Shown here one piece after another: positions 9,037 through 29,528 of a stretch of 64,000 nucleotides of DNA. Made by a program: the position numbers and the translations under genes. The notes under the pieces were generated by a model, which saw nothing but the letters and a program-made list of their open reading frames with translations, searched no databases and was not told where the DNA came from. Position 1 is the first letter of the stretch; each line of letters starts with the position of its first letter. The stretch comes from an uncultured Candidatus Binatia bacterium (GTDB lineage Bacteria > Desulfobacterota > Binatia > HRBIN30 > JACQVA1): assembly GCA_964648215.1 (NCBI GenBank), contig CAZYMF010000004.1:7827-71826 (forward strand), given 5' to 3'.

Positions 9037-9150
9037 CGGCGTGCGACTGTAACGGGGCGCCGGGGGGCGAGGCAATCGCCCCGCGCCGGCGCACGCCGTT
9101 CGGCACCGGCGCCGTTCTCGTGTATAGGCGGCGTGGCGCTGTCCTTTCCC

Positions 9151-12422: not shown

Positions 12423-12443
12423 CCGGCCGCGGCGGTTCCCCTC

Positions 12444-13808
12444 TTGGCGGGGCTGTGCCATAAACCAACGCGATCGCGGAGACGTCCCCGGCATGGCGAT
12501 GACGAAAATCCTGGCGGCGGCCGCGCGGGTTTGAGCGACTTGCCGCGACCGCAGCGAGTGGCCGTCGTCGTGCTCGGTGATCTCGGGCGCAGCCCGCGGA
12601 TGCAGTACCACGCGCAGGCGCTGGCCGGCGCCGGCGTCGAGGTGGATCTGATCGGCTACGAGGGCAGCGAGCTGCCGCGCGAACTGCGCGAGAGCCCGCG
12701 CCTGCGCTGTCATTTGCTGCGCGCGAGCCGGCCGGCGCCGCGCCGGCCGCGGCTGCTCTTCGTCGCCGGCTCCGCCCTGCGCGTGCTGCGGCAATGCGGC
12801 CAACTGCTGTGGGTGCTGCTGTTTCGCATCGACCGACCCAACGTCGTCGTGGTGCAGAATCCGCCGGCGGTGCCGACGCTGTTGCTGGCCGTGCTGGCGG
12901 CGCGGGTGCGCCGGGCCAAGCTGGTGGTCGATTGGCACAATTTCGGGTACGCGATGCTCGCTCTGTCGCTCGACCCGCATCATCCGCTCGTTCGCGTCGC
13001 GCGCTGGTACGAGCGCCGTCTGGCGCGCTTTGCCGACGCGCACCTGTGCGTGTCGCGGGCGATGCAGGCGACGATGCGAACGCAGTGGGGCGTCGCGGCG
13101 GCGGTGCTCTACGATCGACCCGCGGCGCGCTTTCAAGCGGCGTCGGCCGAGGCGCGGCGGGAGCTGCGGCAACGGCTCGCAGAGGCGGTTCCCGAAATGG
13201 TCGTCGCCCGGCCGCCGGCCATCGTCGTCAGCCCGACGAGCTGGACGGCGGACGAGGACTTCGATCTCTTGCTCGACGCCGTTCAACGCTGCGACCGCTT
13301 GCTGTCCGAGCCCGCGCCAGGGTCCGAGCCGGAGCGCGTGGCGCTCCTCGTTCTTCTCACCGGCCGGGGCCCGCTGCGCGCGGCTTACGAGGAACGGATG
13401 CGCCGGATGCCGCTGCGACGGATTCGCCTGCGCGCGCTGTGGCTGAGCCCGCCGGACTATCCGCTGCTGCTGGCGGCCGCCGATCTCGGCCTCTGCCTCC
13501 ACCGCTCGGCCGCGGGAGTAGATCTGCCGATGAAGGTCAGCGACATGTTCGGCGCCGGCTTGCCCGTGTGCGCGTTCGACTACGGGCCCTGTCTCGCCGA
13601 GCTGGTGCACGCGGGCGAAAACGGGCTGCTGTTTTCCTCGGCCGAAGAGCTGGCGCGGCAGCTTTGCCGAGTCGCGGGCGAGCTTCCCGGCGGTGCGTCG
13701 TGGCTGGAGCGGTTGCGGGAGAACGTCCTTGCGCACCGCCAGACGTGGGAGGAAGGTTGGCAGCGGGAGGCCTGGCCGGTGCTCTCCCGGCTGCTGGGGG
13801 CCGAGTAG
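12444..13808 (+). CDS. ALG1-like beta-1,4-mannosyltransferase (GT33)
   Basis: Segment-by-segment resemblance to yeast Alg1 as I recall it: VLGDLGRSPRMQYHA, VQNPPAVPTL, VVDWHNFGY, VLYDRPAARFQ, VSPTSWTADEDFDLLLDA, LTGRGPL, LWLSPPDYPLLLAAADLGLCLHRSAAGVDLPMKVSDMFGAGLPVCA. The true start is uncertain; in-frame TTG 12531, TTG 12540 and GTG 12558 are alternatives. Confidence 0.85.
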   Translation: MAGLCHKPTRSRRRPRHGDDENPGGGRAGLSDLPRPQRVAVVVLGDLGRSPRMQYHAQALAGAGVEVDLIGYEGSELPRELRESPRLRCHLLRASRPAPRRPRLLFVAGSALRVLRQCGQLLWVLLFRIDRPNVVVVQNPPAVPTLLLAVLAARVRRAKLVVDWHNFGYAMLALSLDPHHPLVRVARWYERRLARFADAHLCVSRAMQATMRTQWGVAAAVLYDRPAARFQAASAEARRELRQRLAEAVPEMVVARPPAIVVSPTSWTADEDFDLLLDAVQRCDRLLSEPAPGSEPERVALLVLLTGRGPLRAAYEERMRRMPLRRIRLRALWLSPPDYPLLLAAADLGLCLHRSAAGVDLPMKVSDMFGAGLPVCAFDYGPCLAELVHAGENGLLFSSAEELARQLCRVAGELPGGASWLERLRENVLAHRQTWEEGWQREAWPVLSRLLGAE

Positions 13809-13844
13809 GATTCGACCCGGTCGCCCCACCTTGGTAGAGCTGGC

Positions 13845-15089
13845 ATGGGAAATGGTTCCGAAAGGCAGCGCTTGAAGATCGCCATCCTTCATCCCGACCT
13901 CGGCATCGGCGGCGCCGAGCGGCTGATCGTCGATGCCGCCGTGCAGCTCCAGGCTGCCGGACACCGGGTCACGATCTTCACCAATCACCACGACCCGGCG
14001 CACTGCTTCGCGCCCACCGCCGACGGCACCCTGGAGGTGCGAGTCTTCGGCGCGTCTCTCCCGAGCCACGTCGCGCAGCATCTGCGCGCGCCCTGTGCCG
14101 TGACGAGGATGCTCTACCTCTGCGGGGCGGCGGCCCGCCACGGCCCGTTCGACGTCTTCCTCTGCGACCTGGTGGCGCACGTGATCCCGGCGCTCAAGTG
14201 GCTCGCCCGGACCCCGGTCGTCTTCTACTGTCACTTTCCCGATCAGTTGCTGGTCACGCGCGATCGGTGGCCGTATCGCCTCTATCGCCTGCCCATCGAT
14301 CGTCTCGAGCAATGGGCCACGGGGCACGCCGATCGCGTCCTGGTCAACAGCCGCTTCACCGCGGCGATGTTTGGGAAGGCGTTTCCCCGTTTGCACTGGC
14401 TCACTCCCGACGTTCTCTATCCCGCCACCGGCGACGTCGACGGCTGCGTCGAAACGACCCCGGGGGACGAGCCCATGTTGCTGGCGATCGGGCGCTATGA
14501 TCGTTCCAAGAAGATGGTTCTCGCCGTCGAAGCCCTGGCGCACTTGCGCCAATGCCTGCCCGCGCCCGCGGCGGACAAGGTGCGCCTGGTGATCGCCGGT
14601 CACTACGACGCCGGCTCTCGCGAGAACGTGCTGGCGATGCGGGAGCTGGAGTCGGCCGTGCGCGCCTTCGGGCTGCAGGAGCAGGTGACGCTGCGGCGCT
14701 CGCTGTCGGATGCGGAGCGCATCGATCTCCTGGAGCGCTGCTCGTGCCTCGTCCACACCATGCCCAACGAGCACTTCGGCCTGGTTCCCGTCGAGGCGAT
14801 GGCCGCGGGCAGACCGGTGGTCGCGGTGCGCCGGGGCGGGGTGATGGAGACGGTGCGCCACGGCGAGACGGGCCTGCTGTGCGAGCCCAACCCGGAGGCT
14901 TTTGCCGCGGCCCTGGCGCGCTTGCTGCGCGATCGCGACGAGGCCGCGCGCATGGGGCGGGCGGCGCGGCTGCGTGCTCGGACGCTCTTTTCCCGCGCCG
15001 CCTTCGGCGAGCGTCTCGACGCCATCGTTCGCGAGGTGGCGGCCAAGAAGGCCGGCGCCGAGAGGGGAGCGGCGTGCTCGGCAGCCTGA
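13845..15089 (+). CDS. ALG2-like alpha-1,3/1,6-mannosyltransferase (GT4)
   Basis: [82 protein letters not shown] and [19 protein letters not shown] match the Alg2 pattern ([21 protein letters not shown] ... [10 protein letters not shown]) from memory. Confidence 0.85.
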   Translation: [414 protein letters not shown]

Positions 15090-16921
15090 AGAAATGCCTC
15101 CGCTTTCTCAGCCCCAGCGACCGCTGGCGCTGGGCGAGCTTGATCCCGCTGATCGTCGTGGCCGCCGCGATGGAGGCCGTCGGCGCCGCGGGCGTGTTCC
15201 TGCTCATCAAGCTCACCGCCGATCCGTCGCAGGTGTCCTCGGTGCCGGTCATCTCCGGTCTCTACGCGCGGCTGCCGTGGCACGGCGACAAGGCGATCAT
15301 TCTCGAAGCCACGTTTCTGATCGCGTCGTACTACCTGCTGAAGAACGCCTCGCTGGCCCTGATCTCGGCGCGGCAGAACAGGGTCGTCGGCGAATCGGTG
15401 GCGCGGCTGGGGCGCGAGATGCTGAAGGGCTACCTCGCGGTGCCTTTCGCCTTCCACCTGCGGCGCAACTCCGCCGATCTGATCCGCAACGCAACCGACT
15501 CGGTCGACCGCGTGTTCCGGTTCGTCCTGGCATCGATCGTGGCCGGGTGCGCCGAGGCTCTGATCGTCCTCGGCATCATCGTCGTGCTGCTGACGACGGC
15601 GCCTGGGCTGGCGCTCACCGCGGTGGTCATCCTGTTCGCGCTGCTGGCCGGTGTCATCCGCGGCACGCGACGGGTTCTGCTGCAATGGGGGCGCGAGGAT
15701 CAGCGGTTGCGGGGAGCGGCGCTGCAGACCCTGCAGCAGGCGCTGGCGGGCGTGAAGGAGGTGAAGCTCCGCGGCTGCGAGCCCTTCTACTTCGAGCGTT
15801 TCTGGGCGCAGGAGGACGATCTGGCGCGGGCGCGCGCGCGCTACGACACGTTGTCGATGGCCTCGCGGCTGCTGATCGAGGCGGTCTTCGTGTGTGGCCT
15901 GCTGCTGGTGATCACCCTGGTGACCCTGCGGGGGCGGGGCCCGGACCTCGTCCCGTTGCTCGGCCTCTACGCCTACGCGGGTTTTCGCATCATTCCCTCG
16001 CTCAATCGGATTCTCATGTACGTCAGCAGCATTCGCTACGGCGCCGGCGCCGTCGAGCCGCTCTACGAGGACTGGCAGATGTTCCTTCGCCTGCCGCCGC
16101 CACCGGAGGCCGTCTCCGCGCGTGCCGTGACCTTCGCCGACCGGCTGGTTCTCGACGGCGTGTCGTATCAGTACGAGGGGGCGTCGGCTGCCGCGCTGGA
16201 GAACGTCTCGCTGGCGATTCGACCCGGCGAATCGATCGGGATCGTCGGCCCGACGGGAGCCGGGAAGAGCACCCTGATCGACGTCGTGCTCGGGTTGCTG
16301 GTCCCCTCGCGGGGGCGGGTCACGGCCGACGGCGTGAACATCTTCGAGGCGCTGGCGGCGTGGCAACGGAAGATCGGCTATGTCCCCCAAACGGTGCATC
16401 TGACCGATGATACCCTGCGCCGCAACATTGCCTTCGGCATCGAGGACGACGGGATCGACGACGACAAGATCCGGCGGGCGCTGCGCATGGCGCAGCTGGA
16501 GGATGTCGTCGGCTCTCTTGCCCTCGGGCTGGAGACCACGATCGGTGAGCGCGGCGTGCGCCTGTCCGGCGGCGAGCGCCAGCGGGTTGCGATCGCCCGC
16601 GCCCTCTACCTGCAGCCCGAGGTGCTGGTGTTCGACGAGGCGACGTCGGCATTGGATGCGCAAACCGAGCGCGAGCTGACGCAGGCGATCGAAGCGCTGC
16701 AGGGGCAGAAGACGCTGATCATCGTGGCGCACCGCCTGAGCACGGTGCGGCGCTGCGACCGGCTGGTCTTTCTGCGACAGGGTCGCGTGGCCGACGTCGG
16801 CTCGTTCGACGAGCTGCTCGGGCGCAACGCCGCCTTCCGCGCGATGGCGGCGCCGAGCGGCGACGAGGGAATCGCGGCGATGCCGCCGCCGCTCGGTGCC
16901 GGCCGCAAAGCGACCGGGTAG
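15074..16921 (+). CDS. ABC transporter, fused permease/ATPase (MsbA/PglK-type exporter), candidate lipid-linked oligosaccharide flippase
   Basis: GTG 15074 (VLGSLKKCL) overlaps the ALG2-like stop by 16 nt. Six-TM exporter domain, then Walker [10 protein letters not shown], signature LSGGERQR and Walker [13 protein letters not shown]. The track ORF start at 14552 is an upstream extension across the previous gene. Confidence 0.85.
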
Positions 16922-19243: not shown

Positions 19244-20215
19244 TTGAAGACGTATCTGATCACCGGCGGCGCGGGCTTCATCGGCAGCCACCTCGCCGAG
19301 GCGCTGCTCGCCGCCGGAAATCGCGTGCTGGTGATCGACGACCTGTCGACCGGGAGCCTCGACAACGTCGCTTCGGTGCGGCAGCACCCGCGTTTCGAGA
19401 TCGCCGTCGACACCATCTTCAACCGCGAGCTGGTCGCCGATCTCGTGGCCCGGGCCGACGCCGTTTTTCACCTCGCCGCCGCCGTCGGCGTGCGCCTGAT
19501 CGTCGAGAGCCCGGTGCGCACCATCGAGACCAACGTCGCCGGCACCGAGCTGATCCTCGCCGCCGCCGCCAGGTCGCGCACCCGGGTGCTGATTGCCTCC
19601 TCCTCCGAGGTCTACGGCAAGGCGAACAAGGTGCCCTTCTGCGAGGACGACGACCTGGTGCTCGGCAACACCCGCACCGGGCGCTGGTCGTACGCCTGCA
19701 GCAAGGCCCTCGACGAGTTTCTCGCCCTCGCCTACTGCCGCGAGAAGCAGCTGCCGGCCATCGTCGTGCGGCTGTTCAACACCACCGGCCCGCGGCAGAC
19801 GGGACGCTACGGCATGGTGCTGCCGACCTTCGCCCGCCAGGCCCTGTCGGGGAGCCCGCTCACCGTCTTCGGCGACGGTAAGCAGAGCCGCTGCTTCTGC
19901 GACGTGCGCGACGTCGTCGCCGCCCTGACGGCGGTGATGGAGCACCCCGACGCGCCCGGTCGCGTGTTCAACATCGGCAGCCGGGAAGAGGTCTCCATCG
20001 AGGAGCTGGCGGTGCGCGTGAAGGCGCTGGCCGGCAGCCGGTCCGCGATCGTTCACGTTCCGTACGAGCAGGCGTGGGACGAGCAGTTCGAGGACATGCG
20101 CCGGCGGGTCCCGGATCTTCGCCGCATCCGCGAGCTGATCGGGTTCGAGCCGAGAACCACGCTCGAAGAGCTGATCCGGCGCGTCCTCGAGCACGAGCGC
20201 GTTGCCGGGGGATGA
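19244..20215 (+). CDS. NAD-dependent epimerase/dehydratase (extended SDR, nucleotide-sugar modifying)
   Basis: TTG start with GAAGGAG upstream. ITGGAGFIGSHLAEALL, catalytic YACSKALDE (YxxxK), FNTTGPRQ. Confidence 0.85.
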   Translation: MKTYLITGGAGFIGSHLAEALLAAGNRVLVIDDLSTGSLDNVASVRQHPRFEIAVDTIFNRELVADLVARADAVFHLAAAVGVRLIVESPVRTIETNVAGTELILAAAARSRTRVLIASSSEVYGKANKVPFCEDDDLVLGNTRTGRWSYACSKALDEFLALAYCREKQLPAIVVRLFNTTGPRQTGRYGMVLPTFARQALSGSPLTVFGDGKQSRCFCDVRDVVAALTAVMEHPDAPGRVFNIGSREEVSIEELAVRVKALAGSRSAIVHVPYEQAWDEQFEDMRRRVPDLRRIRELIGFEPRTTLEELIRRVLEHERVAGG

Positions 20216-21768
20216 GCGTGGCGACCAAGATCCTGTTCGTCGCCCTCGACGCCGCCGATCGCGATCACATCCTGCGGTGGGCGGAAGAGGGTCGGCTGCC
20301 GACCTTGCGCCGCCTGCTCGACGGCGGCGCGTCGGCGACCACGTTGGCGCCCCTCGGCATGCACGCCGCTTCGGTGTGGCACTCCTTTGTCACCGCGGTC
20401 ACACCGGGAAAGCACGGGCGTCACGGCGATCGTCAGGTTCGCCCCGGCACCTACGAGATGTACCGCTTCCAGCCTACGGACACGAAGCGGGAGTCGTTCT
20501 GGCACACGCTGAGCCGTGCCGGCCGCCGCGTGGCGGTGATCGACGCGCCGTATGTTCCCCTGTTGCGCGGCATCAACGGCATGCACGTGCTGGACTGGAC
20601 GACGCACGCAAAGGACACGGGCTTTTGCACCGAGCCGCCCGCGCTCGCAGGCGAGATACGGGCGCGCTTCGGGGACGATCCGATCGGCTTGTGCGATCAC
20701 CGGCACCTGCAGACGGGCGCCGAGATCGCCGCGTTTCGCGACGGGCTGACGGCCAAGGTGAGGCTCAAGCTCGATCTGTCGCGGCACTTCCTCGCGCGCG
20801 GCGAGTGGGACCTGTTTCTCACCGCCTTCGGCGAGAGCCACTGTGCCGGTCACCAGTGCTGGCACCTCAACGATCCACGCCATCCGCGGTTCGATGCCGC
20901 CGTGGCGCGCGTTGCCGGCAACCCGATGCTCGACGTGTACCGCGCCCTCGACGATGCCATCGGCGCGCTTGTCCGCGACGCCGGACCGGAGGCGACCGTG
21001 TGCGTGCTCGCCACGCACGGCATGGGCCCCTTCTACAACGGCGCGCACCTGCTCGGGGAGATCCTCGTCCGCCTCGGCCACGCGCCGCCGCCCCGGGCGC
21101 CGTCGCGCACCTGGGCGCTGCTGCGCCGGGGCTGGCGGCTGCTGCCGCTGCGCTTGCGGACGCGGCTGACGCCGCTGCACAAGGCCGCGGTGGATCGGGT
21201 GTGGCCGAAGCTCGATCGGAGAGCCGATTGCTTCGACATGCCCAACGGCGAAGTCTACGGGGCGATTCGTATCAACCTGGCGGGACGCGAGCCGGCCGGG
21301 CGTATCCGTCCCGGCGCCGACTACGAGGCGTTCTGCGAGCAGCTCAGTGCCGACCTCCGTGCCCTGATCAACGACGACACCGGCCAGCCGGCCGTCCGCC
21401 GGGTGCTGCGCACCGCCGAGCTCTATCCGGGCCCCTGTCTCGACGACCTGCCCGACCTGCTCGTGGAATGGAGCTCGGACGCGCCCCTGACCACGGTGTC
21501 GTCGGCGAAGGTCGGCACCATCCAGCGTCCCTTCGACGGGACGCGCACCGGCCATCACAAGCGCGAGGGGCTGTTCCTCGTCTGCGGCCCGGGCATCCGA
21601 CCCGGCCGCGCGCCGGCGCCCGTCTCCATCATGGACGTCGGGCCGACGGTGGCGGCGCTGCTCGGCTGCACCCTGCCCGACGTCGACGGAAAGCCCGTCA
21701 TCGCCTGTCTGCCGGAGGACGGTGTGGCTCGAGCAGACGGGCCAGGAGCCGTTCGGTCGCACGCGTGA
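20212..21768 (+). CDS. Alkaline-phosphatase superfamily / type I phosphodiesterase-nucleotide pyrophosphatase-like protein
   Basis: ATG 20212 overlaps the previous stop (ATGA). ILFVALDAADRDHILRW ... LTAFGESHCAGHQ ... VLATHGMGP ... TGHHKREGLF fit the metal-site pattern of the Phosphodiest family. The track start at 20074 is an upstream extension. Confidence 0.65.
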   Translation: MSVATKILFVALDAADRDHILRWAEEGRLPTLRRLLDGGASATTLAPLGMHAASVWHSFVTAVTPGKHGRHGDRQVRPGTYEMYRFQPTDTKRESFWHTLSRAGRRVAVIDAPYVPLLRGINGMHVLDWTTHAKDTGFCTEPPALAGEIRARFGDDPIGLCDHRHLQTGAEIAAFRDGLTAKVRLKLDLSRHFLARGEWDLFLTAFGESHCAGHQCWHLNDPRHPRFDAAVARVAGNPMLDVYRALDDAIGALVRDAGPEATVCVLATHGMGPFYNGAHLLGEILVRLGHAPPPRAPSRTWALLRRGWRLLPLRLRTRLTPLHKAAVDRVWPKLDRRADCFDMPNGEVYGAIRINLAGREPAGRIRPGADYEAFCEQLSADLRALINDDTGQPAVRRVLRTAELYPGPCLDDLPDLLVEWSSDAPLTTVSSAKVGTIQRPFDGTRTGHHKREGLFLVCGPGIRPGRAPAPVSIMDVGPTVAALLGCTLPDVDGKPVIACLPEDGVARADGPGAVRSHA

Positions 21769-22870
21769 TCTTCGTTGCGTCGAACCGCTGGCGGACCTCG
21801 CGGCGCGCGGCCTCGGCCAGTTGCCGGCGGAGCTGGGGTTCGCTCGCCAGGCGGCGCAGCGCCGCGGCCAGCGCGACGACGTCCCCGGGTGGAACCAGCA
21901 GACCGGTTTGCCCGTCCGTGATCACCTCGGCGGCGGCGCCGCCGGCATAGGCGGCGGTTGGGACACCCGCCGCCGCGGCCTCGATAAGGACGCGGCCGAA
22001 GGCCTCGTTGCTGCTCGCGTGCGCGACGATGTCGAGGGCGGCGAGGGTGGAGGGCATGTCTTCCTGGTGGCCGGCGAAGACGACGCGGCCGGCGAGGTTG
22101 CGCGAGCGCACCGCATTTTTGATCTCGCGCTCGTAGGTGGCCGCGTCGTGGAAGATGTCGCCGCCGATGAGGGCGAAGTAGACGCCGTCGAGATCGCGCA
22201 GCAGCTCGGCCGCGGCGATGACGTCGCGCTGACCCTTCCACGGCTGCAGGCGGGCGACGTGCCCGATGAGGATGGCGTCGGGCGGCACTCCCCACGCGCG
22301 GCGAAGGCGCGCCGCCTCTTCGCCGCGATCCGCGGCGAAGTCGTCGGCGCGCACGCCATTGTAGACCACCTCTACCTTTTCGGCGCACGGCAGCGGCGCC
22401 GCGGCCGCCTGCGAGACGGCGATCGCCAGTCGGCAGCGGCGACAGATCCAGCGCACATAGGCGCTCGCCGGCAGGATGTCGTGCACATGCCAGACAAGAG
22501 GGCGCCCAGTCAGCAGCGCCGCCGCGCCGGCGTACGCGCTGGCGCGCAGGCTGTTGGCGTGGACCAGGGCGCAGCCTTCGCGGTGGATGAGGCGGGTCAG
22601 CGTGGCGGCGCCGCGGGCAAGCAGCCACGGTGCCGCGGGGCGGTGGCGCAGACGCGGCAGCGGCACCTCGTGCACCGCCACGCCGAGAGAGCGCGCCGCC
22701 TCGGCGAGCGTGCCCGGCTGCGTCGCCAGGTGAGGCGCGAATCGGCTGCGGTCGATCTGCTCGAGCAACAGGAGCAGGGCGTTCTGCGCTCCACCGCGGG
22801 CCTGGGCGTGGTCCACGAAGAGCAGCGGCGTCGGGGAGGTGCGGTGGGTTGCGGTGGCCATCTCGTCCAC
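21698..22870 (-). CDS. GT4 glycosyltransferase
   Basis: LLFVDHAQARGGAQNALLLLLE ... GHVARLQPWKGQ ... ASSNEAFGRVLIEAAAAGVPTAAYAGGAAAEVITDGQTGLLVPPGD (GT-B, E-x7-E region). Start is GTG 22870 or ATG 22861. Confidence 0.85.
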   Translation of the reverse strand: MDEMATATHRTSPTPLLFVDHAQARGGAQNALLLLLEQIDRSRFAPHLATQPGTLAEAARSLGVAVHEVPLPRLRHRPAAPWLLARGAATLTRLIHREGCALVHANSLRASAYAGAAALLTGRPLVWHVHDILPASAYVRWICRRCRLAIAVSQAAAAPLPCAEKVEVVYNGVRADDFAADRGEEAARLRRAWGVPPDAILIGHVARLQPWKGQRDVIAAAELLRDLDGVYFALIGGDIFHDAATYEREIKNAVRSRNLAGRVVFAGHQEDMPSTLAALDIVAHASSNEAFGRVLIEAAAAGVPTAAYAGGAAAEVITDGQTGLLVPPGDVVALAAALRRLASEPQLRRQLAEAARREVRQRFDATKITRATERLLARLLEPHRPPADRR

Positions 22871-22941
22871 GCACCGTTACCACGCGCCGCTCGGCAAGAC
22901 ACGTTCGGGCCGCGCGGATCTGTGCTAAGGGGAGCGCGCCG

Positions 22942-24048
22942 ATGACGCCCTCGCTCAGTGTGGTGCACGTCTACAAGAGCTTCCCTCCGGTGCGCGGCGG
23001 CATCGAAGGCCACGTCGATCTGCTCACGCGGCTGCTGGCGCGACAGGGCCTGCGGCCCGAGGTTCTGTGCGCGTCCGCTCCCGGCGCGCCGGCGGACGAG
23101 GTGCGGGACGGCGTAAGGATTCACCGCTGTACGCCGTTGCTGACGCTCGCCTCGACACCGTTGCCGCCGGCGTTGCCGTGGCGGTTGCGCCGCAGCCCGG
23201 CGGAGATCGTGCACCTGCACTATCCGTGGCCGCCGGCCGAGCTCGCCTATCTGCTCGGCGGTCGCGGCCGCCCCCTGGTGGTAACGCTGCACTGCGAGGT
23301 GATTCGCTATCCCGGTCTGGCAAGGGCCCTGCGGCCGCTCACCCGACGCGTGCTGCGCGCGGCACGACGCATCGTCGTATCGAGCCCGGCGCTGGCCGGA
23401 ACCCCGTTGCTCGCGAAGCATGCCGGGCGCGTCCGGGTGATTCCGTTCGGCGTCGACGTCGAGCGCTTCCGGCCCGCTCCCACGGCGGCCGATCCGATCC
23501 CGCATGTTCCCCGTCCGCGCATCCTGTTCGTCGGCCGGCTGCGCCACTACAAGGGGCTGCCCGTGCTCGCGGCGGCGCTCGGGCGCCTGCCGCGAGCCCA
23601 CCTGGTCGTCGTCGGCGACGGCCCGGAGCGTGCCGCGCTGGAACGAGCCCTGGAGGTGCACGGCTGTCGCGAGCGAGCGCACCTGCTCGGCGAGGTCGCC
23701 GACGACCTGTTGCTGCGGCTGTTGCAGAGCGTCGACGCAGCGGCTCTGCCTTCGATCTCGCGTGCCGAAGCCTTCGGCCTGTCGATCGCCGAGGCGCAGG
23801 CGTGCGGCGTGCCGGCGGTGACGACCGACGTCGGCACCGGGACGACGGAGACCGTGCGCGACGGCGTGTCGGGCCGCGTCGTGCCGCCGGGAGACGTCGA
23901 TGCCCTGGCGCAGGCACTGGCCTGGTGCCTCGACCCGGAGCACGCGAGCGCTCGGCGAGCGGCGGCGCGGGCGCACGCCGAGGATCGTCTCGGCTCCGGC
24001 CGGATGACGGCGGCGATCGCGGAGCTCTACGACGAGGTGATGCGGTAG
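22942..24048 (+). CDS. GT4 glycosyltransferase
   Basis: ATG 22942 (MTPSLSVVHVYKSFPPVRGGIEGHV) ... FVGRLRHYKGL ... PSISRAEAFGLSIAEAQACGVPAVTTDVGTGTTETVRDGVSGRVVPPGD. Confidence 0.85.
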   Translation: MTPSLSVVHVYKSFPPVRGGIEGHVDLLTRLLARQGLRPEVLCASAPGAPADEVRDGVRIHRCTPLLTLASTPLPPALPWRLRRSPAEIVHLHYPWPPAELAYLLGGRGRPLVVTLHCEVIRYPGLARALRPLTRRVLRAARRIVVSSPALAGTPLLAKHAGRVRVIPFGVDVERFRPAPTAADPIPHVPRPRILFVGRLRHYKGLPVLAAALGRLPRAHLVVVGDGPERAALERALEVHGCRERAHLLGEVADDLLLRLLQSVDAAALPSISRAEAFGLSIAEAQACGVPAVTTDVGTGTTETVRDGVSGRVVPPGDVDALAQALAWCLDPEHASARRAAARAHAEDRLGSGRMTAAIAELYDEVMR

Positions 24049-24204
24049 CCAGGAGCACGCCGAGCATCCGCTGGCGTTCGAGGCAGCGGGACCAAGCGAT
24101 AGATCGGCCCGCGGCGCTCGAGACGGAAATGCCGGCGAATGCCGTCGACGTCGTAGCAGCTCCATTTCCCCTGACGCGACGAATCGCCTAGAACCCGCGC
24201 ACCG

Positions 24205-25338
24205 ATGAGGATCTGCTTCGACGCCCGCTGCGTGCAGCAACATTTCCCCGGGATCGGCCGCTACGCGATCGGCCTGGTGCGAGCGATGCAGCCGCTGCTC
24301 GGCGAGGATGACGAGCTGGTCTTGCTGCGCGATCCGCGAGCGGCATCGCATTGGGATCTTGCGGCATGGCGCGGCGATCGGGTGACGATCTGGGACGTGC
24401 CGCTGTCGCCGTTCTCGCTGCGCCAGCAGTGGCAGCTGCCGCACCTGCTGCGCCGGCGCCACGTCGAGCTCTACCACAGCCCGTACTACCTGATGCCGTA
24501 TCGGCCGGGAGTCGCCGGCGTCGTGAGCATTCACGATCTCATCCCCTTGCACTACCCGCGGCTGTTCTCCCCGGCGCAGCGGCTGATCTTCGCCCTGACG
24601 GTTCGCCTGGCCGTGCGCGCGGCGACCACGGTGATCGCGCCGTCGGCGACGACGGCCGGCGACTTGCGGCAGAGGCTGGGGGTGCCGGCCGAGCGTCTGG
24701 TGACCATCCCCCTCGGTGTCGACGAGACCTTCCGTCCGCAGAGCGCGCAGGAGGTTGCGGCCGCGCGCGAGCCGCTCGGCCTGCCGCAGGGCTACGCTCT
24801 CTACGTCGGCTCGAACAAGCCGCACAAGAATCTGGTGCGGCTGGTCGAGGCGTGGGCGAAGCTGCGGGATCGCGTGCCGGTGCTGGTCGTCGCCGGTCCC
24901 TGGGATGCGCGCTTCCCCGAGGCCCGGGAGAGCGCGGCAGCGTTGAAGCTGGAGGAGAGCGTGCGCTTCCTCGGCGCCGTGGCCGAAAGCCGGCTCCCCG
25001 CGTTGTACGGCGGCGCCTCGCTGTTCGTCTTCCCGTCGTGCTACGAGGGCTTCGGCCTGCCGGTCCTCGAGGCCATGGCCTGCGGTGTCCCGGTTGCCTG
25101 CTCCAATGGCGGCAGCCTGCCGGAGGTCGTCGGCCCGGCGGCGGAGCTCTTCGATCCGTCGGCAGTCGACGCCATTGCCGCTGCGGTCGAACGTCTCCTG
25201 GACGATCCTGACCGCCGGCGGGAGCTGTCCCGGCGCGGTCTGGAGCGGGCGGCCCGGTTTCGTTGGCAGGGGACCGCGGCGGCCGTGGTGCAGGTGTATC
25301 GCCGCGTGTTGCGCCGCGGCGACGAGGTCTCAGGATAG
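24205..25338 (+). CDS. GT4 glycosyltransferase (mannosyltransferase-like)
   Basis: MRICFDARCVQQHFPGIGRY ... YVGSNKPHKNL ... FVFPSCYEGFGLPVLEAMACGVPVACSNGGSLPEVVG. Confidence 0.85.
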   Translation: MRICFDARCVQQHFPGIGRYAIGLVRAMQPLLGEDDELVLLRDPRAASHWDLAAWRGDRVTIWDVPLSPFSLRQQWQLPHLLRRRHVELYHSPYYLMPYRPGVAGVVSIHDLIPLHYPRLFSPAQRLIFALTVRLAVRAATTVIAPSATTAGDLRQRLGVPAERLVTIPLGVDETFRPQSAQEVAAAREPLGLPQGYALYVGSNKPHKNLVRLVEAWAKLRDRVPVLVVAGPWDARFPEARESAAALKLEESVRFLGAVAESRLPALYGGASLFVFPSCYEGFGLPVLEAMACGVPVACSNGGSLPEVVGPAAELFDPSAVDAIAAAVERLLDDPDRRRELSRRGLERAARFRWQGTAAAVVQVYRRVLRRGDEVSG

Positions 25339-26370
25339 GCCCTTGGTGCCGGCGGCCGCCGCGAGCGCTCCGAGCGCGCAGAAGAGCAGTGCCAGCAGCA
25401 GCGGCGCCTCTTGGGAGCCGACCGTGGGCAGCAGCAGCGCGGCCAGGCCGCAGGCTGCCGCCGCCGACCACAGGGTGACCACGGCGGTGGCCGGATGCAT
25501 GCCGCGCCGGACCAGCCGGTGACTGATGTGCCGGCGGTCGCCGACCCAGGGGGGGTGGCCCAGGCGCAGTCGCAGGACGGTGACCAGAACGAGATCGAGA
25601 ACGGGCACGGCGAGCACGAACAGGGGAGTGAACACGGCCAGGACCGGAATGTGCGCGCCGCGCGTGTAGACGCCCATCACCGACAGGGCGGCGAGCAGGA
25701 AGCCGATCAACATCGAGCCGGTATCGCCGAGAAAGATCCGCGCCCGCGGCCAGTTGTAGGGCAGGAAGCCGAGGCAGGCGCCGCCGAGCGCCGCCGCCAC
25801 CACGGCCACGGTCAGCTCTCCCGAGCGCAGGTTGATGACCGCCAGCGATACTGCGGCGACGGCCCCGAGACCGGCGCAGAGGCCGTTCATGTTGTCGAGG
25901 AAGTTCAGCGCGTTGGTGATTCCCACCACCCAGAGAATGGTGAGCAGTATGATCGGCAGGGGCGGCCAGGGCAGGAACAGGCTGAGGTGGACGCCGAGCA
26001 GGGCCAGGCAGAGTCCCGCCAGACTGGTGGCGACGACTTGGAACCCGAACTTGTGCCGCGGCACCAGCCCGCGGATGTCGTCGAGCAGGCCGGCGCCGAC
26101 GATGACCAGCGCCCCGAGGGCCAGCGCGGCCAAGCCCGCCATGCCCGCTCGGCTGCCGCCCGGCAGAAACGGCACCACCCCGGCGACGATGCCGGCAAGG
26201 ACGCCCAGGCCGCCGAGCAGAGGAGTCGCCGCGGCGTGCGCCTTGTACCCGGCAGGCTGGTCGAGGACGCCGAGGCGGCGTGCCACCCAGGCCATCAACC
26301 CGGTGGCGAGCAAAGAGGCGACAGCGGCGGCCAGCCCCGCCCCGAGCAGATCGACGTGATGGAGCTCCAT
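25330..26370 (-). CDS. Second PNPT-family polyprenyl-phosphate phospho-sugar transferase, atypical motif
   Basis: 346 aa and polytopic. LLDDIRGL acidic motif; NALNFLDNMNGLCAGLG in place of the bacterial N-x-x-N-x-x-DG-x-DGL; FLGDTGSMLIGF; HISHRLV. Confidence 0.8.
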   Translation of the reverse strand: MELHHVDLLGAGLAAAVASLLATGLMAWVARRLGVLDQPAGYKAHAAATPLLGGLGVLAGIVAGVVPFLPGGSRAGMAGLAALALGALVIVGAGLLDDIRGLVPRHKFGFQVVATSLAGLCLALLGVHLSLFLPWPPLPIILLTILWVVGITNALNFLDNMNGLCAGLGAVAAVSLAVINLRSGELTVAVVAAALGGACLGFLPYNWPRARIFLGDTGSMLIGFLLAALSVMGVYTRGAHIPVLAVFTPLFVLAVPVLDLVLVTVLRLRLGHPPWVGDRRHISHRLVRRGMHPATAVVTLWSAAAACGLAALLLPTVGSQEAPLLLALLFCALGALAAAAGTKGLS

Positions 26371-26522
26371 CGTGGCCGTCTCTTATAGGCCGATGGAGTC
26401 GGCGAAGGTAGAGGCGGCCGCGGTCGGTCGAACGACTCCCGCGTCCCTGGCGATGAGCGCCGCACCCTCCGTCCCGCGGGGTTGACGCCCGCCGCGACAA
26501 CTGACAGGACGACCCTCGGGTC

Positions 26523-29500
26523 ATGCAGTCCAAGCTGAGCGGCGTGGCGGCGAGCTGGGTGGAGAGCGCCTGGCTGGCCGCCGTGGTGGCGGTCCCGGTC
26601 TTCTTCAACTTTCACTCCGAGCGCATCTTCGAGCCCGACAAAGTGCTGCTGCTGCGGTCGATCGCGACCGCGCTCGCCGCTGGCCTCGCCGTGTGGGCGA
26701 TCGAGAGCGGACCGCGGACCCTGCGGCTCGAATCGCGGCTCCTCTGGCGCACACCCCTGGGGACGGCGGCGCTCGTGCTCACCGCCGCCTACCTGGCGGC
26801 CACGGCCTTCAGCATCGTTCCCGCGGTGTCGTGGTGGGGCGGCTACGACCGCTGTCAGGGAGCCTACACCTGGCTCGCCTACATGGCGGTGTTCGCCGGC
26901 ATCGCTCTGCTGGTCCGTCGGCGCGAGCAGGTCGAGCGAGTCGTCACGGCCGCTTTGCTGGCCAGCTTCCCGGTGGCGGCCTACGCCGCGATCCAGCACT
27001 TCGACCATGACCCGATTGCCTGGGGGTTCGGTGTCAGCGATCGGGTGACCAGCACGGCCGGCAACGCCATCTTCCTCAGCGCCTATCTGATCATGGTGCT
27101 GCCGCTCACCCTGGCGCGCTTGCTCGCCCGGATCGAGCGAGCCGCCGCCCGCGGCTCGCGGTCGGGAGCTGCCCCGGGGCGATTCGCCGCTGTACTGCTG
27201 GCCGTTGCCTACCTGCTGCTGGCGGTGCTGCAGATATTGGCGATCGTGTACTCGGAGAGCCGCGGGCCTTTTGCCGGGCTGCTGGTGGGAGTGGTGTTCT
27301 TCGGCTTCGTCTTCGCTCTGTACCGCCGCTGGCGCTGGCTGGTCCGGGCGGTCGCGCTGGCGGCGGCTGCGGGACTGCTGGCGCTCTTGCTCTTGAACGC
27401 TCGCGGCCCGGGCGCCGACGACCGAGCTCCGGCCAGCGGTATCGGCCGCCTCAGCCAGGTCTTCGCCCTGGAGCAGGGCTCGGGCAAGGTTCGGGTTTTG
27501 ATCTGGCAGGGGGTGTCCAATCTACTGCGCGCGGATCCGCTGCGTGACCTGATCGGCTACGGCCCGGAGACCCTCTTCTTCGCCTACAATCGCTTCTACC
27601 CCCCCGACCTCGCCCACTTCGAGAGCCGCACGGTGTCCGCCGACCGCGCGCACAACGAGCTCTTCGATGCCGTCGTGACCACCGGCGTGTTCGGGCTGCT
27701 GGCGGAGCTCGCCGTTTTCCTCTCCCTGGTGGTGCTGGTGCTGTGGCAGCTCGGCCTGCTGGAGACGGCTCGGCGGCGGCGGGCCTGCGCCGCCGTCGCG
27801 GCCGCCGGCGCGCTGTCGGGAGCTGCCGTCGCCGGTGGCCTGGGAGGCTTGCGCTTCTGCGCAATCGGCTTGGCGGCGGGTCTGGTCGCTGGTGTGCTCG
27901 TCTATCTCGTCAGCCTGGGGCTCGGCCGGATGCCGGAGCGGAGCGAGGGCGGGCATCCCCAGGGTCTGCTGCTCATCGCGCTCCTTGCCGCGGCCGTGGC
28001 GCACTTCGTCGAGCTGCAGGTGGGCATCGCGGTGGCCGCGACGCGACTCTACTTCTGGGTCTATGCCGGCCTGGCAGTCGTCCTCGCGCGCACGGCGAGC
28101 GAAAGTTGCGCCCGAGAGCCTGGGCCGCCGCTCCCGCAACGGCCGTCCAGTGGCGGCGTGCTCGTTCTCGGCTCGCTCGTCGGTCTCCTGCTGGTGGTGC
28201 TGACCTTCGACTTCTACAAGCCGACCGCCGTGTTGAGCACGCAGGGGTACGTCCTGGTGTGGCTGTTCGCGGGCGCGTGGCTCTTCGCCGCGATCGTGGT
28301 GATCGCCGAGTCCGCGGCCGACGGCGAAGAGTTGGGGGCCCGGGCTCTCGGCTACGCCGGCATCAGTCTCGGCGCGTGGCTGCTGTTCCTGGCCGTGTAT
28401 CGCGCTTGGATGACGTGGAGGCCGGCGGACGCCGGCCCCGAAGAGATTCAACAGCTCGCCGTGCATCTCACCCACGGGACCTCGGTGCTCTACGGCTTCG
28501 TCGTCTTCGTCGTGGCGCTCACCGCCGCGGCGCTTGCCGGCCGGCGCGGCTTGCCGGCCGCAACCCTGGTGCGGCCGCCCGGCTGGCAGGTGATCCTCTA
28601 TCCGGCCCTGTTTCTCGCGGCGGCGTTCGTCGCCGTGCGCACCAATCTCGACGCCGCCCGCGCCGACGTCTTCAGCCGGCAGGCCGGCTACTACGAATCA
28701 CAGAACCACTGGTCGACGGCGCTGCCCTTGCGCCAGGAGACGACGCGTCTGGTGCCGTACCTCGACTACTACATGCTCGACGTTGCCCGCACCTTCATGG
28801 AGCTGGGCCGGCGCGCGGGAGAGCCGCGGCGGCGTGATGACGACATGGAGCAGTCGGAAGCCTGGATGCAGCGCGCCTGGCGGGCGGTGCCGTTGAACAT
28901 GGACAACCCGCGCGCTCTGGGCCGCCTGCACCGCACCTGGGCGCAGCTGGTCGCCGATCCCGCCGCGCGCGCGCGTCATTTCGATCAGGCGGAGAGCTAC
29001 TATCGGCGAGCTCTCGAGATCAGCCCGAACAATGCATCTCTGTGGGACGAGCTCGCGTTGCTCTTTGTCCAGCGACACGATCACGAGAAGGCGCTGGCGA
29101 CGCTGAAGCAATCCCTGGTGATCGACAACCTCTACCCCAGGACCTACTTCATCCGGGGCAACATCTATGCCGGTCTCGGTCGCTTCGACGAGGCGCTGGC
29201 CGACTACGATCGCGGGCTGGCCGTCCATCCCGGCCTGGTTCCGCTGCTGAGCGCGAAGGCGTTCGTGCTCAACCGCGTCGGCCGTCTCGACGCGGCGATC
29301 GACCTGAATCGGCGGATCTTGAAGAGCAACCCCAAGGACCTGATCGCGCACCGCAACCTCGCCGTGTTCTACCGCCAGAAGGGCGATCCCGAGCGGGCTC
29401 TGAGCGAGGCGCGGGCCGCCCTGGCGGTCGCTCCCCCGTGGGCCAAGCCGCCGCTGCGGACGTTCATCGAGGAGCTGGGACAGGAGAAGGGACCGTTGAC

Positions 29501-29528
29501 CAAGCTGCCGCCGCCGCTGCTGCGCTAG
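26523..29528 (+). CDS. Wzy_C-domain (O-antigen ligase / O-oligosaccharyltransferase family) membrane protein fused to C-terminal TPR repeats
   Basis: 1001 aa. About 12 or more TM segments with a periplasmic loop containing SADRAHNELFDAVVTTGVFGLLAE (Wzy_C-like RxxHN motif). The C-terminal ~280 aa hold TPR-like repeats (YYRRALEISPNNASLWDELALLF, GNIYAGLGRFDEALADYDRGLAVHP, YRQKGDPERALSEARAAL). Confidence 0.8.
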   Translation: MQSKLSGVAASWVESAWLAAVVAVPVFFNFHSERIFEPDKVLLLRSIATALAAGLAVWAIESGPRTLRLESRLLWRTPLGTAALVLTAAYLAATAFSIVPAVSWWGGYDRCQGAYTWLAYMAVFAGIALLVRRREQVERVVTAALLASFPVAAYAAIQHFDHDPIAWGFGVSDRVTSTAGNAIFLSAYLIMVLPLTLARLLARIERAAARGSRSGAAPGRFAAVLLAVAYLLLAVLQILAIVYSESRGPFAGLLVGVVFFGFVFALYRRWRWLVRAVALAAAAGLLALLLLNARGPGADDRAPASGIGRLSQVFALEQGSGKVRVLIWQGVSNLLRADPLRDLIGYGPETLFFAYNRFYPPDLAHFESRTVSADRAHNELFDAVVTTGVFGLLAELAVFLSLVVLVLWQLGLLETARRRRACAAVAAAGALSGAAVAGGLGGLRFCAIGLAAGLVAGVLVYLVSLGLGRMPERSEGGHPQGLLLIALLAAAVAHFVELQVGIAVAATRLYFWVYAGLAVVLARTASESCAREPGPPLPQRPSSGGVLVLGSLVGLLLVVLTFDFYKPTAVLSTQGYVLVWLFAGAWLFAAIVVIAESAADGEELGARALGYAGISLGAWLLFLAVYRAWMTWRPADAGPEEIQQLAVHLTHGTSVLYGFVVFVVALTAAALAGRRGLPAATLVRPPGWQVILYPALFLAAAFVAVRTNLDAARADVFSRQAGYYESQNHWSTALPLRQETTRLVPYLDYYMLDVARTFMELGRRAGEPRRRDDDMEQSEAWMQRAWRAVPLNMDNPRALGRLHRTWAQLVADPAARARHFDQAESYYRRALEISPNNASLWDELALLFVQRHDHEKALATLKQSLVIDNLYPRTYFIRGNIYAGLGRFDEALADYDRGLAVHPGLVPLLSAKAFVLNRVGRLDAAIDLNRRILKSNPKDLIAHRNLAVFYRQKGDPERALSEARAALAVAPPWAKPPLRTFIEELGQEKGPLTKLPPPLLR

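What the first reader, a model, noticed from the sequence alone, without database searches (positions are those of the whole stretch)
19244..29528. Second glycan locus ending in a 1001-aa Wzy_C-TPR protein: possible O-linked protein glycosylation system beside the N-linked one
The locus contains:
- A nucleotide-sugar epimerase/dehydratase, coupled by an ATGA overlap to an alkaline-phosphatase-superfamily enzyme.
- Three GT4s.
- Its own initiating phospho-sugar transferase (25330-26370).
- Divergently from that transferase, a Wzy_C-domain membrane protein (AHNELFD loop motif) fused to about 280 aa of TPR repeats.

Wzy_C is shared by O-antigen ligases/polymerases and by the PglL/PilO O-oligosaccharyltransferases. 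A protein-interaction TPR module fits a protein acceptor better than lipid A-core. If so, the region encodes both N- and O-glycosylation machineries within 25 kb.
Basis: partly seen in the sequence, partly recalled or inferred. Interest (0 to 1): 0.6.

Follow-up and report, generated by a model that had tools for sequence, protein, structure and literature searches.

The report
Borrowed glycan ligase module with TPR
A seven-gene sugar-chain locus ends in a large, unstudied membrane enzyme with the O-antigen-ligase fold and an outward-facing TPR arm; this probable Binatia bacterium took it from Chloroflexota, and it most likely attaches a short glycan to secreted proteins, though nothing has been tested at the bench.

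Summary
Three details need correcting. One GT4 lies on the minus strand. The second GT4 starts at 22942. The AHNELFD motif is the generic Wzy_C histidine motif, found in at least five of the genome's seven Wzy_C paralogues.

The 1001-aa protein has 19 predicted TM helices. Its only significant solved fold match is WaaL (7tpg), and its seven TPR hairpins face outward.

Its family has 2272 representatives at 50% identity with E<=1e-30. Nearly all are from Chloroflexota. All 22 Chloroflexota host genomes tested lack the Kdo transferase WaaA, so the family is not a lipid A-core ligase. The window's copy nests inside Ardenticatenia, which points to horizontal transfer.

The conserved partners are a WecA-like phosphotransferase (37/44 loci), GT4s, and often an extracytoplasmic cyclophilin (21/50 loci, sometimes fused) and DedA. 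Wzx is rare (4/44), and no Wzz family appeared among the recurrent neighbour families.

Two unrelated Wzy_C-TPR paralogues in this genome sit in complete Wzc/Wzx clusters. A TPR tail alone therefore does not indicate a protein acceptor.

Odds:
- protein O-oligosaccharyltransferase-like: about 0.45
- polymerase or ligase of a non-protein envelope glycan: about 0.33

The PglL markers PF15864 and PF11846 are absent.

The parts
19244..20215 (+). NAD-dependent SDR nucleotide-sugar epimerase/dehydratase. Best NCBIfam matches are LegB, RmlB and ArnA-like, all below the curated cut-offs.
   Evidence: PF01370 1.5e-55 and PF16363 2.6e-56; NCBIfam. An orthologous SDR lies directly upstream of the ligase gene in 18-21 homologous loci.
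20212..21768 (+). Cytoplasmic alkaline-phosphatase-superfamily (type I phosphodiesterase) protein, translationally coupled to the SDR by an ATGA overlap. It is an accessory gene of this lineage.
   Evidence: PF01663 1.7e-19; ATGA at 20212-20215 and no signal peptide; no counterpart in about 80 homologous loci.
21698..22870 (-). GT4 glycosyltransferase (GT4a) on the minus strand. Its 3' end overlaps the phosphodiesterase gene tail-to-tail by 71 bp. Accessory gene.
   Evidence: PF00534 1.5e-33 and PF13439 4e-18; found in only 3 homologous loci.
22942..24048 (+). GT4 glycosyltransferase (GT4b), part of the conserved core.
   Evidence: PF13692 7.4e-34 and PF00534 1.9e-33; ATG at 22942; 68-69% identical orthologues upstream of the ligase in Binatia loci L085, L089 and L016, and 35-42% identical ones in 17 further loci, mostly named Chloroflexota.
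24205..25338 (+). GT4 glycosyltransferase (GT4c), part of the conserved core.
   Evidence: PF00534 1.3e-36; 61% identical orthologue in L085/L089 and 43-51% identical ones in Chloroflexota loci (23 loci in all).
25330..26370 (-). WecA/MraY-family polyprenyl-phosphate HexNAc-1-phosphate transferase (PNPT), the initiating enzyme. It is divergent from the ligase gene and carries the variant motif NFLDNMNGL.
   Evidence: PF00953 2.7e-36; TIGR02380 WecA 1.2e-30, below cut-off. A PNPT of this type lies next to the ligase gene in 37 of 44 fully flanked homologous loci, with a median gap of 2 nt.
26523..29528 (+). 1001-aa Wzy_C / WaaL-fold membrane glycan transferase with an extra membrane module and a periplasmic TPR arm (P0001).
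27219..27704 (+). Wzy_C domain (residues 233-394). It includes the large outward loop 292-388 and the family-invariant residues R247, R324, D374, R375, H377 and D382.
   Evidence: PF04932 62.8 bits; invariant columns; hhalign places H377 on E. coli WaaL H338, at low probability.
27753..28700 (+). Extra membrane module (TM11-TM19, residues 411-726) with invariant H494 and E497. No match to any Pfam or NCBIfam model or to any solved fold.
28710..29492 (+). Seven TPR hairpins (residues 730-990), predicted to be extracytoplasmic.
   Evidence: TPR_1/2/16 hits. AlphaFold helices 730-989, pLDDT mostly above 90, whole-protein pTM 0.89. Best fold matches are the OGT and SPINDLY TPRs. Nineteen TM helices plus positive-inside loops place the C-terminus outside.
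15074..16921 (+). ABC half-transporter of the neighbouring STT3 locus. It is the only flippase-type gene on the contig and so a candidate flippase for this pathway as well. This is inference only.
   Evidence: PF00005 and PF00664; no Wzx-type match on contig C4.

Best explanation
The locus is a self-contained module for making a lipid-linked oligosaccharide. This probable Binatia lineage acquired it from Chloroflexota.

Proposed pathway:
1. The WecA-like transferase puts a HexNAc-phosphate on undecaprenyl phosphate.
2. The conserved GT4b and GT4c, and here also GT4a, add two to three sugars. The SDR enzyme supplies a modified nucleotide sugar.
3. The chain is flipped by a transporter not encoded in the module. 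The neighbouring ABC exporter is a candidate.
4. The 1001-aa WaaL-fold enzyme transfers the short glycan en bloc to Ser/Thr (or Tyr) of extracytoplasmic proteins. Its periplasmic TPR arm holds these proteins over the catalytic loop that carries R247, R324 and H377.

Shown here: the gene content, the fold, the family's distribution and its gene linkage. Predicted from helix count and loop charges: the topology. Inferred: the identity of the sugars, the flippase and, above all, the protein acceptor.
For: 1. WaaL fold. The only significant solved-structure match of the membrane part is WaaL 7tpg (E 2.6e-4, probability 1.0, TM-score 0.51). Wzy_C scores above its cut-off.
2. Not a lipid A ligase. 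WaaA is absent from 22/22 Chloroflexota genomes that carry the family, and present only in 2 Binatia and 1 Syntrophaceae-labelled genome.
3. Not in a Wzy-type context. There is no Wzx or Wzz on the whole contig. Wzx occurs in 4/44 homologous loci, and no PCP family is among the recurrent neighbour families. Within the same genome, the two unrelated Wzy_C-TPR paralogues do sit beside Wzc and Wzx.
4. Conserved short-glycan toolkit. PNPT is present in 37/44 loci, and GT4b and GT4c are orthologous across two phyla. That is unlike hypervariable O-antigen or EPS loci.
5. Link to protein folding. An extracytoplasmic cyclophilin is linked in 21/50 informative loci, with at least 9 gains or losses on the tree. 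Some are lipoproteins. In several roughly 1500-aa relatives the cyclophilin is fused after the TPR.
6. The TPR is predicted to be outside.
7. Candidate acceptor. In the Binatia relatives L085 and L089, a 398-aa secreted protein with a C-terminal sorting-type anchor lies between the PNPT and the ligase. Proteins carrying the same C-terminal module lie next to two STT3 paralogues in this genome.
8. Precedent. The predicted S-layer O-OTase WsfB of P. alvei is described as Wzy_C plus a C-terminal TPR (PMC2943079). The pilin OTase TfpW has a periplasmic TPR (bioRxiv 10.1101/2020.04.19.049825).
Against: - The PglL/PglS marker domains PglL_A (PF15864) and Wzy_C_2 (PF11846) are absent even at E<=10.
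- No NCBIfam model matches.
- A family profile finds no solved structure by sequence.
- TPR tails occur on probable Wzy polymerases in this very genome.
- The cyclophilin is absent from the window and from the Binatia loci, and from 29/50 informative loci overall.
- The candidate acceptor gene is missing from the window, where the intergenic gap is only 152 bp.
- No glycoprotein from any host of this family is on record in the papers searched.
- The 9-helix extra membrane module has no explained role.
Confidence: 0.45

Rival explanations
1. The enzyme is a polymerase or ligase for a conserved envelope glycan that is not attached to protein, for example a teichuronic-acid-like or common-antigen-like polymer. 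The TPR arm would act as a scaffold towards other envelope machinery.
For: - Wzy_C covers polymerases as well as ligases.
- Two other Wzy_C-TPR proteins of this genome lie in Wzc/Wzx EPS clusters.
- A UDP-sugar 6-dehydrogenase (13/44 loci) and an SDR (11/44) suggest uronic or modified acidic sugars.
- GT4c has a weak TuaC match.
- TPRs are known scaffolds of polysaccharide export (reference cited within PMC2943079).
- DedA linkage (14/44) fits any pathway that uses undecaprenyl phosphate.
Against: - No co-polymerase family recurs in the homologous neighbourhoods, and Wzx is present in only 4/44.
- There is no export or LCP-type ligase partner in the conserved neighbourhood.
- Cyclophilin fusion is hard to explain for a polysaccharide enzyme.
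- P0001 is unrelated in sequence to the EPS-type paralogues.
Confidence: 0.33
2. In this LPS-bearing host the enzyme has been recruited as the WaaL that joins the glycan to lipid A-core.
For: - The genome has LpxB (2.7e-91) and WaaA (7e-54) on contig C5.
- The fold is that of WaaL.
- None of the seven Wzy_C paralogues is assigned as WaaL.
Against: - The family is native to WaaA-less Chloroflexota.
- The gene is not near the lpx/waa genes, which are on a different contig.
- It is absent from 26/26 genomes of the other families of the same order and from one of four other genomes of its own family. These would still need a WaaL if they carry O-antigen.
- Six other Wzy_C paralogues are available for that role.
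Confidence: 0.07
3. The second locus mainly supplies or modifies the lipid-linked glycan used by the neighbouring STT3 N-oligosaccharyltransferase. The two loci would then form one system, with the Wzy_C-TPR protein in an accessory role.
For: - Within the family, STT3 and the Wzy_C-TPR orthologue share one presence/absence pattern: both present in 4 genomes and both absent in 1.
- The only flippase gene on the contig lies in the STT3 locus.
- Homologues of the secreted protein adjacent to the ligase in L085/L089 lie beside STT3 paralogues in this genome.
Against: - The genes are on different contigs in all three relatives.
- The STT3 locus already has its own PNPT, GTs and flippase.
- Most Chloroflexota carriers have no convincing STT3 (12/25 no hit; most other hits at or below the cut-off).
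- One Binatia carrier (G005) has none.
Confidence: 0.05

Closest known systems
WaaL O-antigen ligase (Cupriavidus metallidurans, PDB 7tpg/7tpj; E. coli K-12 WaaL)
   Same: - Same membrane fold for the first 10-12 helices (Foldseek E 2.6e-4).
- Same Pfam family.
- A large outward loop with a histidine that hhalign places on E. coli WaaL H338.
- Arg-Arg-His spacing of 77/53 residues, against 73/50 in WaaL (values from PMC3643930).
   Different: - 1001 aa against about 400-420.
- Nine extra TM helices and seven TPR hairpins.
- No sequence-level match to 7tpg, even with a family profile.
- The family lives in organisms without Kdo-lipid A.
- Not located in an LPS core locus.
PglL / PglS general and pilin-type O-oligosaccharyltransferases (Neisseria, Acinetobacter)
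   Same: - Wzy_C core.
- Predicted en bloc transfer from an Und-PP-linked short glycan that starts with a 2-acetamido sugar.
- Not embedded in an LPS locus.
   Different: - Lacks PglL_A (PF15864) and Wzy_C_2 (PF11846).
- Much larger, with a different extra membrane module.
- Tightly paired with its own initiating transferase.
- No adjacent pilin.
WsfB (Paenibacillus alvei) / WsaB+WsaA (Geobacillus stearothermophilus), predicted S-layer O-oligosaccharyltransferases
   Same: Wzy_C domain plus a C-terminal TPR, as described in PMC2943079. Both work in a monoderm setting without LPS, and both are encoded in a dedicated glycan gene cluster.
   Different: Sequence relatedness to WsfB was not tested, because no WsfB sequence was at hand. 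No S-layer gene is adjacent. This family has a 19-TM architecture and is linked to cyclophilin and DedA.
Wzy O-antigen/EPS polymerases in Wzx/Wzy/Wzc pathways, including the two Wzy_C-TPR paralogues of this genome on C14 and C86
   Same: Same Pfam domain, the same H(N/S) motif and a C-terminal TPR.
   Different: Those paralogues have Wzc and Wzx as direct neighbours, and P0001 has neither. P0001 shows no sequence similarity to them outside the TPR and the motif.
TfpW (P. aeruginosa pilin arabinosyl OTase) and eukaryotic TMTC/OGT-type TPR-bearing protein glycosyltransferases
   Same: A membrane or soluble glycosyltransferase carries a TPR array on the side where the protein acceptor is met (for TfpW; TMTC and OGT from general knowledge). 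The nearest fold matches to the TPR arm are the OGT and SPINDLY TPRs.
   Different: The catalytic folds differ: GT-C ArnT-like or GT-B, against the WaaL fold here. This is an analogy only.

Membership tests
Wzy_C / WaaL-like superfamily (PF04932) | Match to the Wzy_C profile above the curated cut-off | tested here: met
   62.8 bits against a cut-off of 31.7, residues 233-394.
Wzy_C / WaaL-like superfamily (PF04932) | WaaL-type membrane fold | tested here: met
   AlphaFold model with pLDDT 85.4 and pTM 0.91. 7tpg_B is the only hit with E<0.001 (E 2.6e-4, TM-score 0.51 on the target).
Wzy_C / WaaL-like superfamily (PF04932) | Conserved Arg, Arg and His on outward loops (E. coli WaaL R215, R288, H338) | tested here: inconclusive
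   R247, R324 and H377 are invariant in 24-26 family members, with matching spacing. Only H377=H338 was aligned by hhalign, at 5% probability.
WaaL sensu stricto (lipid A-core O-antigen ligase) | The host makes a Kdo-lipid A acceptor | tested here: not met
   For the family as a whole, WaaA is absent from 22/22 Chloroflexota carriers. The window's own genome does have LpxB and WaaA, so the acceptor exists in this host.
WaaL sensu stricto (lipid A-core O-antigen ligase) | The gene lies within or beside LPS core or O-antigen genes | tested here: not met
   lpxB and waaA are on contig C5. The neighbours here are the PNPT, the GT4s and an amidase.
PglL / PglS O-oligosaccharyltransferases | PglL_A (PF15864) and/or Wzy_C_2 (PF11846) flanking Wzy_C (PMC3643930, PMC12645811) | tested here: not met
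   Only PF04932 is reported for residues 1-726, even at E<=10.
PglL / PglS O-oligosaccharyltransferases | Transfers Und-PP-linked glycan to Ser/Thr of proteins | not testable with these tools
   Needs glycoproteomics or a heterologous assay.
TfpO/PilO and TfpM pilin O-OTases | Gene lies next to its pilin substrate | tested here: not met
   The flanking genes are the PNPT and an amidase. No pilin family was among the recurrent neighbour families.
Wzy polymerase of a Wzx/Wzy-dependent pathway | Co-located Wzx flippase and Wzz/Wzc co-polymerase | tested here: not met
   None on the 72.6-kb contig. Wzx is present in 4/44 homologous loci, and no PCP family is among the recurrent neighbour families. 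The paralogues on C14 and C86 do meet this criterion.
WsfB-type S-layer O-OTase | Wzy_C plus C-terminal TPR architecture | tested here: met
   Architecture; WsfB description from PMC2943079.
WsfB-type S-layer O-OTase | Sequence homology to WsfB, and an S-layer structural gene in the cluster | not tested

The most novel reading that the evidence does not exclude
The 19-TM Wzy_C-TPR enzyme and its dedicated WecA-like partner form the core of a general protein O-glycosylation system native to Chloroflexota. It would be a fifth class of O-oligosaccharyltransferase, sometimes with a built-in prolyl isomerase. The system moved as a module into Binatia. This bacterium would then run both an STT3 N-linked and a WaaL-fold O-linked en bloc glycosylation pathway, possibly on the same family of anchored surface proteins.
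Probability: 0.4. Interest if true: 0.75.

Novelty: new variant of a known kind. Interest (0 to 1): 0.55.

Why it matters
No protein O-glycosylation enzyme was found for Chloroflexota or Binatia in the papers searched. If this reading is right, the family would be that enzyme. It is large: 2272 clusters at 50% identity with E<=1e-30.

It would add a structurally distinct class to the four known O-OTase classes. These enzymes are sought as tools for bioconjugate vaccines, because acceptor and glycan specificities differ between classes.

The cyclophilin fusions would be a bacterial parallel to the folding-modulating subunits of the eukaryotic OST.

For this genome in particular, a bacterium with an STT3 pathway and a second, independently acquired en bloc pathway could show how such pathways share lipid carriers, flippases and substrates.

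Tried and rejected
- The raw ORFs 20202-21950, 21722-22945 and 23067-24191 gave no Pfam hits and were the wrong frames. They were re-called.
- Sequence searches of P0001, of its membrane part and of a 24-sequence family profile against PDB chains found only TPR proteins or noise.
- The fold search with the full-length model was swamped by TPR hits, so a membrane-only model had to be made.
- hhalign against E. coli WaaL aligned only the histidine motif, at low probability.
- An earlier scan note mentions a solved PglL (9rmk). It did not appear in my fold search, nor in a PDB sequence search with E. coli WaaL. No comparison with PglL was therefore possible.
- I first took the AHNELFD/His motif and the Arg-Arg-His pattern as a discriminator between ligase and polymerase. 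I dropped this because the EPS-type paralogues carry the same motif.
- I checked the TPR repeats by eye for an OGT-like asparagine ladder and found none.
- Literature searches for this family in Anaerolineae or Binatota returned nothing.
- LpxC was not found although LpxB and WaaA are present. I did not pursue this.


Full report
**Observation**

The window is about 70% G+C, so raw ORF lists are full of spurious frames. I combined Pfam and NCBIfam scans with a GC3 filter to get the following map of the finding:

- SDR epimerase/dehydratase, 19244-20215 (+).
- Alkaline-phosphatase-superfamily protein (PF01663), 20212-21768 (+). Its ATG overlaps the SDR stop as ATGA.
- GT4a, 21698-22870, on the minus strand.
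- GT4b, 22942-24048 (+) (start).
- GT4c, 24205-25338 (+).
- A PF00953 WecA/MraY-family phosphotransferase, 25330-26370 (-).
- The 1001-aa protein P0001, 26523-29528 (+), divergent from the phosphotransferase with a 152-bp gap.

P0001 carries Wzy_C at residues 233-394 (62.8 bits against a cut-off of 31.7), the string DRAHNELFD at 374-382, and TPR matches towards the C-terminus. The locus is bounded upstream by an acyl-CoA synthetase and downstream by an amidase.

**Anatomy of the large protein**

AlphaFold with a 26-sequence alignment gives a confident model (pLDDT 87.4, pTM 0.89). It has 19 transmembrane helices, a structured loop at 292-388 and 14 C-terminal helices forming seven TPR hairpins (730-989).

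Loops after even-numbered helices are rich in Arg and Lys. This puts the N-terminus inside, and the 292-388 loop and the TPR arm outside. This topology is predicted, not measured.

A membrane-only model (pLDDT 85.4, pTM 0.91) has a single significant solved relative, the O-antigen ligase WaaL 7tpg (E 2.6e-4, probability 1.0). The next hits are noise. Helices 11-19 match nothing.

At the sequence level neither the protein nor a family profile finds any solved structure. No NCBIfam model matches the membrane part. hhalign against E. coli K-12 WaaL aligns only the histidine motif, placing H377 on H338.

R247, R324, D374, R375, H377, D382, H494 and E497 are invariant across the family. The histidine motif is not specific, however. 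At least five of the seven Wzy_C paralogues in this genome have it.

**The family and its hosts**

The word-indexed search returned 355 relatives. The best are 930-1230 aa Wzy_C-TPR proteins annotated only as O-antigen ligase family or TPR proteins. An exhaustive profile search with the membrane part finds 2272 representatives at 50% identity with E<=1e-30.

Of the 80 best loci in named genomes, nearly all are Chloroflexota (Anaerolineae, Ardenticatenales, Caldilineales, Thermoflexus). Two are Candidatus Binatia and one is a Syntrophaceae-labelled bin.

In a tree of 78 sequences, the window's protein groups with the Binatia sequences (support 99). That group is nested inside Ardenticatenia (support 99-100). 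The remaining 69 sequences form the other side of the tree and come from Chloroflexota-named bins, apart from the Syntrophaceae-labelled bin and two records without a phylum name.

Among 30 relatives of the window's genome, the gene is present in three of the four other genomes of its own family and in none of 26 genomes from other families of the same order. The simplest reading is transfer from a Chloroflexota donor into this Binatia family. The direction is inferred from the nesting.

**Is it a WaaL?**

The window's genome makes lipid A. LpxB (2.7e-91) and the Kdo transferase WaaA (7e-54) are on contig C5, although LpxC was not found.

WaaA is absent from all 22 Chloroflexota genomes that carry a family member. 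It is present only in the two Binatia genomes and the Syntrophaceae bin. The family therefore did not evolve as a lipid A-core ligase. Recruitment to that role after transfer is possible but nothing supports it.

**Is it a Wzy polymerase in a conventional O-antigen/EPS cluster?**

No Wzx match lies on the 72.6-kb contig, and no Wzz/PCP or OPX gene was seen among the contig genes examined.

I examined homologous loci by all-against-all clustering of neighbouring ORFs and by targeted tblastn. In 44 loci with at least 3 kb on both sides, the counts are:

| Neighbour | Loci (of 44) |
|---|---|
| WecA-like PNPT | 37 |
| GT4 | 19 |
| Cyclophilin | 17 |
| DedA/VTT | 14 |
| UDP-sugar 6-dehydrogenase | 13 |
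| SDR | 11 |
| Wzx | 4 |

The PNPT usually starts within a few bases of the ligase stop. No co-polymerase family was among the recurrent neighbour families. Pfam identities of representatives are, and two annotated examples are.

GT4b and GT4c are orthologous between Binatia and Chloroflexota (61-69% identity within Binatia, 35-51% across phyla). The glycan-building set is thus small and conserved, unlike O-antigen or capsule loci.

**An internal control from the same genome**

Two other Wzy_C+TPR proteins exist, on C14 (14839-17766) and C86. They are unrelated to P0001 outside the TPR and the motif. Each lies directly downstream of a Wzz-GNVR-AAA_31 tyrosine-kinase co-polymerase and next to a Wzx-type gene.

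This has two consequences:
- P0001 lacks exactly the partners that those polymerase-type paralogues have.

A further paralogue on C48 is a full-length TIGR03097 [quoted passage not shown] (424 bits).

**Evidence pointing to a protein acceptor**

- *Cyclophilin linkage.* A cyclophilin gene lies within 6 kb downstream in 20 of 50 informative loci and is fused in one. The trait needs at least nine changes on the tree, so it is not a quirk of one clade. Several database relatives of about 1500 aa carry the cyclophilin domain fused after the TPR. Some free-standing copies have a signal peptide and lipobox, which matches the predicted outward position of the TPR arm.
- *An adjacent secreted protein.* In the closest Binatia loci (L085, L089) a 398-aa secreted protein lies between the PNPT and the ligase. 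It has a Cys-rich repeat, a choice-of-anchor-U-like domain and a C-terminal sorting-type anchor.
- *The same anchor module beside STT3.* In the window's genome, three proteins gave strong matches to its C-terminal module. Two of them lie directly beside STT3 paralogues on C210 and C195. This is the arrangement expected of dedicated OTase substrates.
- *Precedent.* The predicted S-layer O-OTase WsfB is described as Wzy_C plus a C-terminal TPR (PMC2943079). The pilin OTase TfpW has a periplasmic TPR domain.

**Evidence against**

- The PglL/PglS marker domains PF15864 and PF11846 (PMC3643930, PMC12645811) are absent even at E<=10.
- The cyclophilin and the candidate acceptor gene are both missing from the window.
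- No paper in the library mentions this family or glycoproteins of these hosts.

**Relation to the neighbouring STT3 locus**

STT3, a first PNPT, a GT2, a GT-C, two GT4s and an ABC exporter lie at 5022-16921. Within the family, STT3 and the P0001 orthologue share the same presence/absence pattern: four genomes have both and one has neither. In the three relatives that have both, the genes sit on different contigs.

Most Chloroflexota carriers have no convincing STT3. The adjacency seen here is therefore not conserved, and the module works without STT3 elsewhere. Sharing of the ABC flippase is a reasonable guess for this genome, but only a guess.

**Verdict**

The best-supported mechanism is a horizontally acquired pathway in which a WaaL-fold enzyme with an outward TPR arm transfers a short HexNAc-initiated glycan en bloc to secreted proteins.

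| Reading | Odds |
|---|---|
| Protein O-oligosaccharyltransferase-like | about 0.45 |
| Polymerase or ligase for a conserved non-protein envelope glycan | about 0.33 |
| True WaaL role | about 0.07 |
| Accessory role in the STT3 pathway | about 0.05 |
| Unassigned | remainder |

The protein is a member of the Wzy_C/WaaL-fold superfamily. It meets none of the tests for the WaaL, PglL/PglS, TfpO/TfpM or Wzy subfamilies. I file it as a new variant of a known kind.

Earlier notes of this scan describe the same family in Chloroflexota and reach a similar reading. I treat them as leads only. The cyclophilin fusion and the PNPT pairing were found here independently, before those notes were read.

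Noticed in passing
Genome contigs C14:14839-17766 and C86:about 11135-15571 (outside the window): Two further Wzy_C+TPR proteins. Each lies directly downstream of a Wzz-GNVR-AAA_31 (Wzc-like) tyrosine-kinase co-polymerase and near a Wzx-type gene. These are apparently two complete Wzx/Wzy/Wzc EPS clusters whose polymerase carries a TPR tail.
   Followed up: partly
Genome contigs C210:1063-5864 and C195:1852-6923 (outside the window): Two extra STT3 paralogues. Each is adjacent to a large secreted protein that ends in the same C-terminal module (choice-of-anchor-U-like domain, hydrophobic anchor, Arg tail) as the 398-aa protein found beside the Wzy_C-TPR gene in Binatia loci L085 and L089. A third such protein on C10 has a long Thr/Pro-rich linker. 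These are candidate dedicated glycosylation substrates.
   Followed up: partly
Whole genome G000: LpxB and WaaA are present on contig C5, but no LpxC match was found in a bin estimated to be 98% complete.
   Followed up: no
window 21698-21768: The convergent phosphodiesterase-like gene and GT4a overlap tail-to-tail by 71 bp. Either both C-termini are real or one ORF is over-extended in this high-GC sequence.
   Followed up: no
window 25330-26370: The PNPT reads NFLDNMNGL where Chloroflexota partners read NFLDNMDGL and WecA reads DG-x-DGL. The second acidic residue of the motif is Asn in this copy.
   Followed up: no
G026:C119:70650-76508 (loci L097, L098): One relative from the same family carries two tandem copies of the Wzy_C-TPR gene (43% and 38% identical to P0001).
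   Followed up: no
Genome contig C48:6946-8292: A full-length TIGR03097 [quoted passage not shown] (424 bits). The genome therefore also has a PEP-CTERM/XrtA-type system with its own Wzy_C protein.
   Followed up: no
L091:14405-15781 and 13 other loci: A DedA/VTT-domain protein, of the family implicated in undecaprenyl-phosphate recycling, follows the ligase-PNPT-cyclophilin genes in 14 of 44 Chloroflexota loci.
   Followed up: partly
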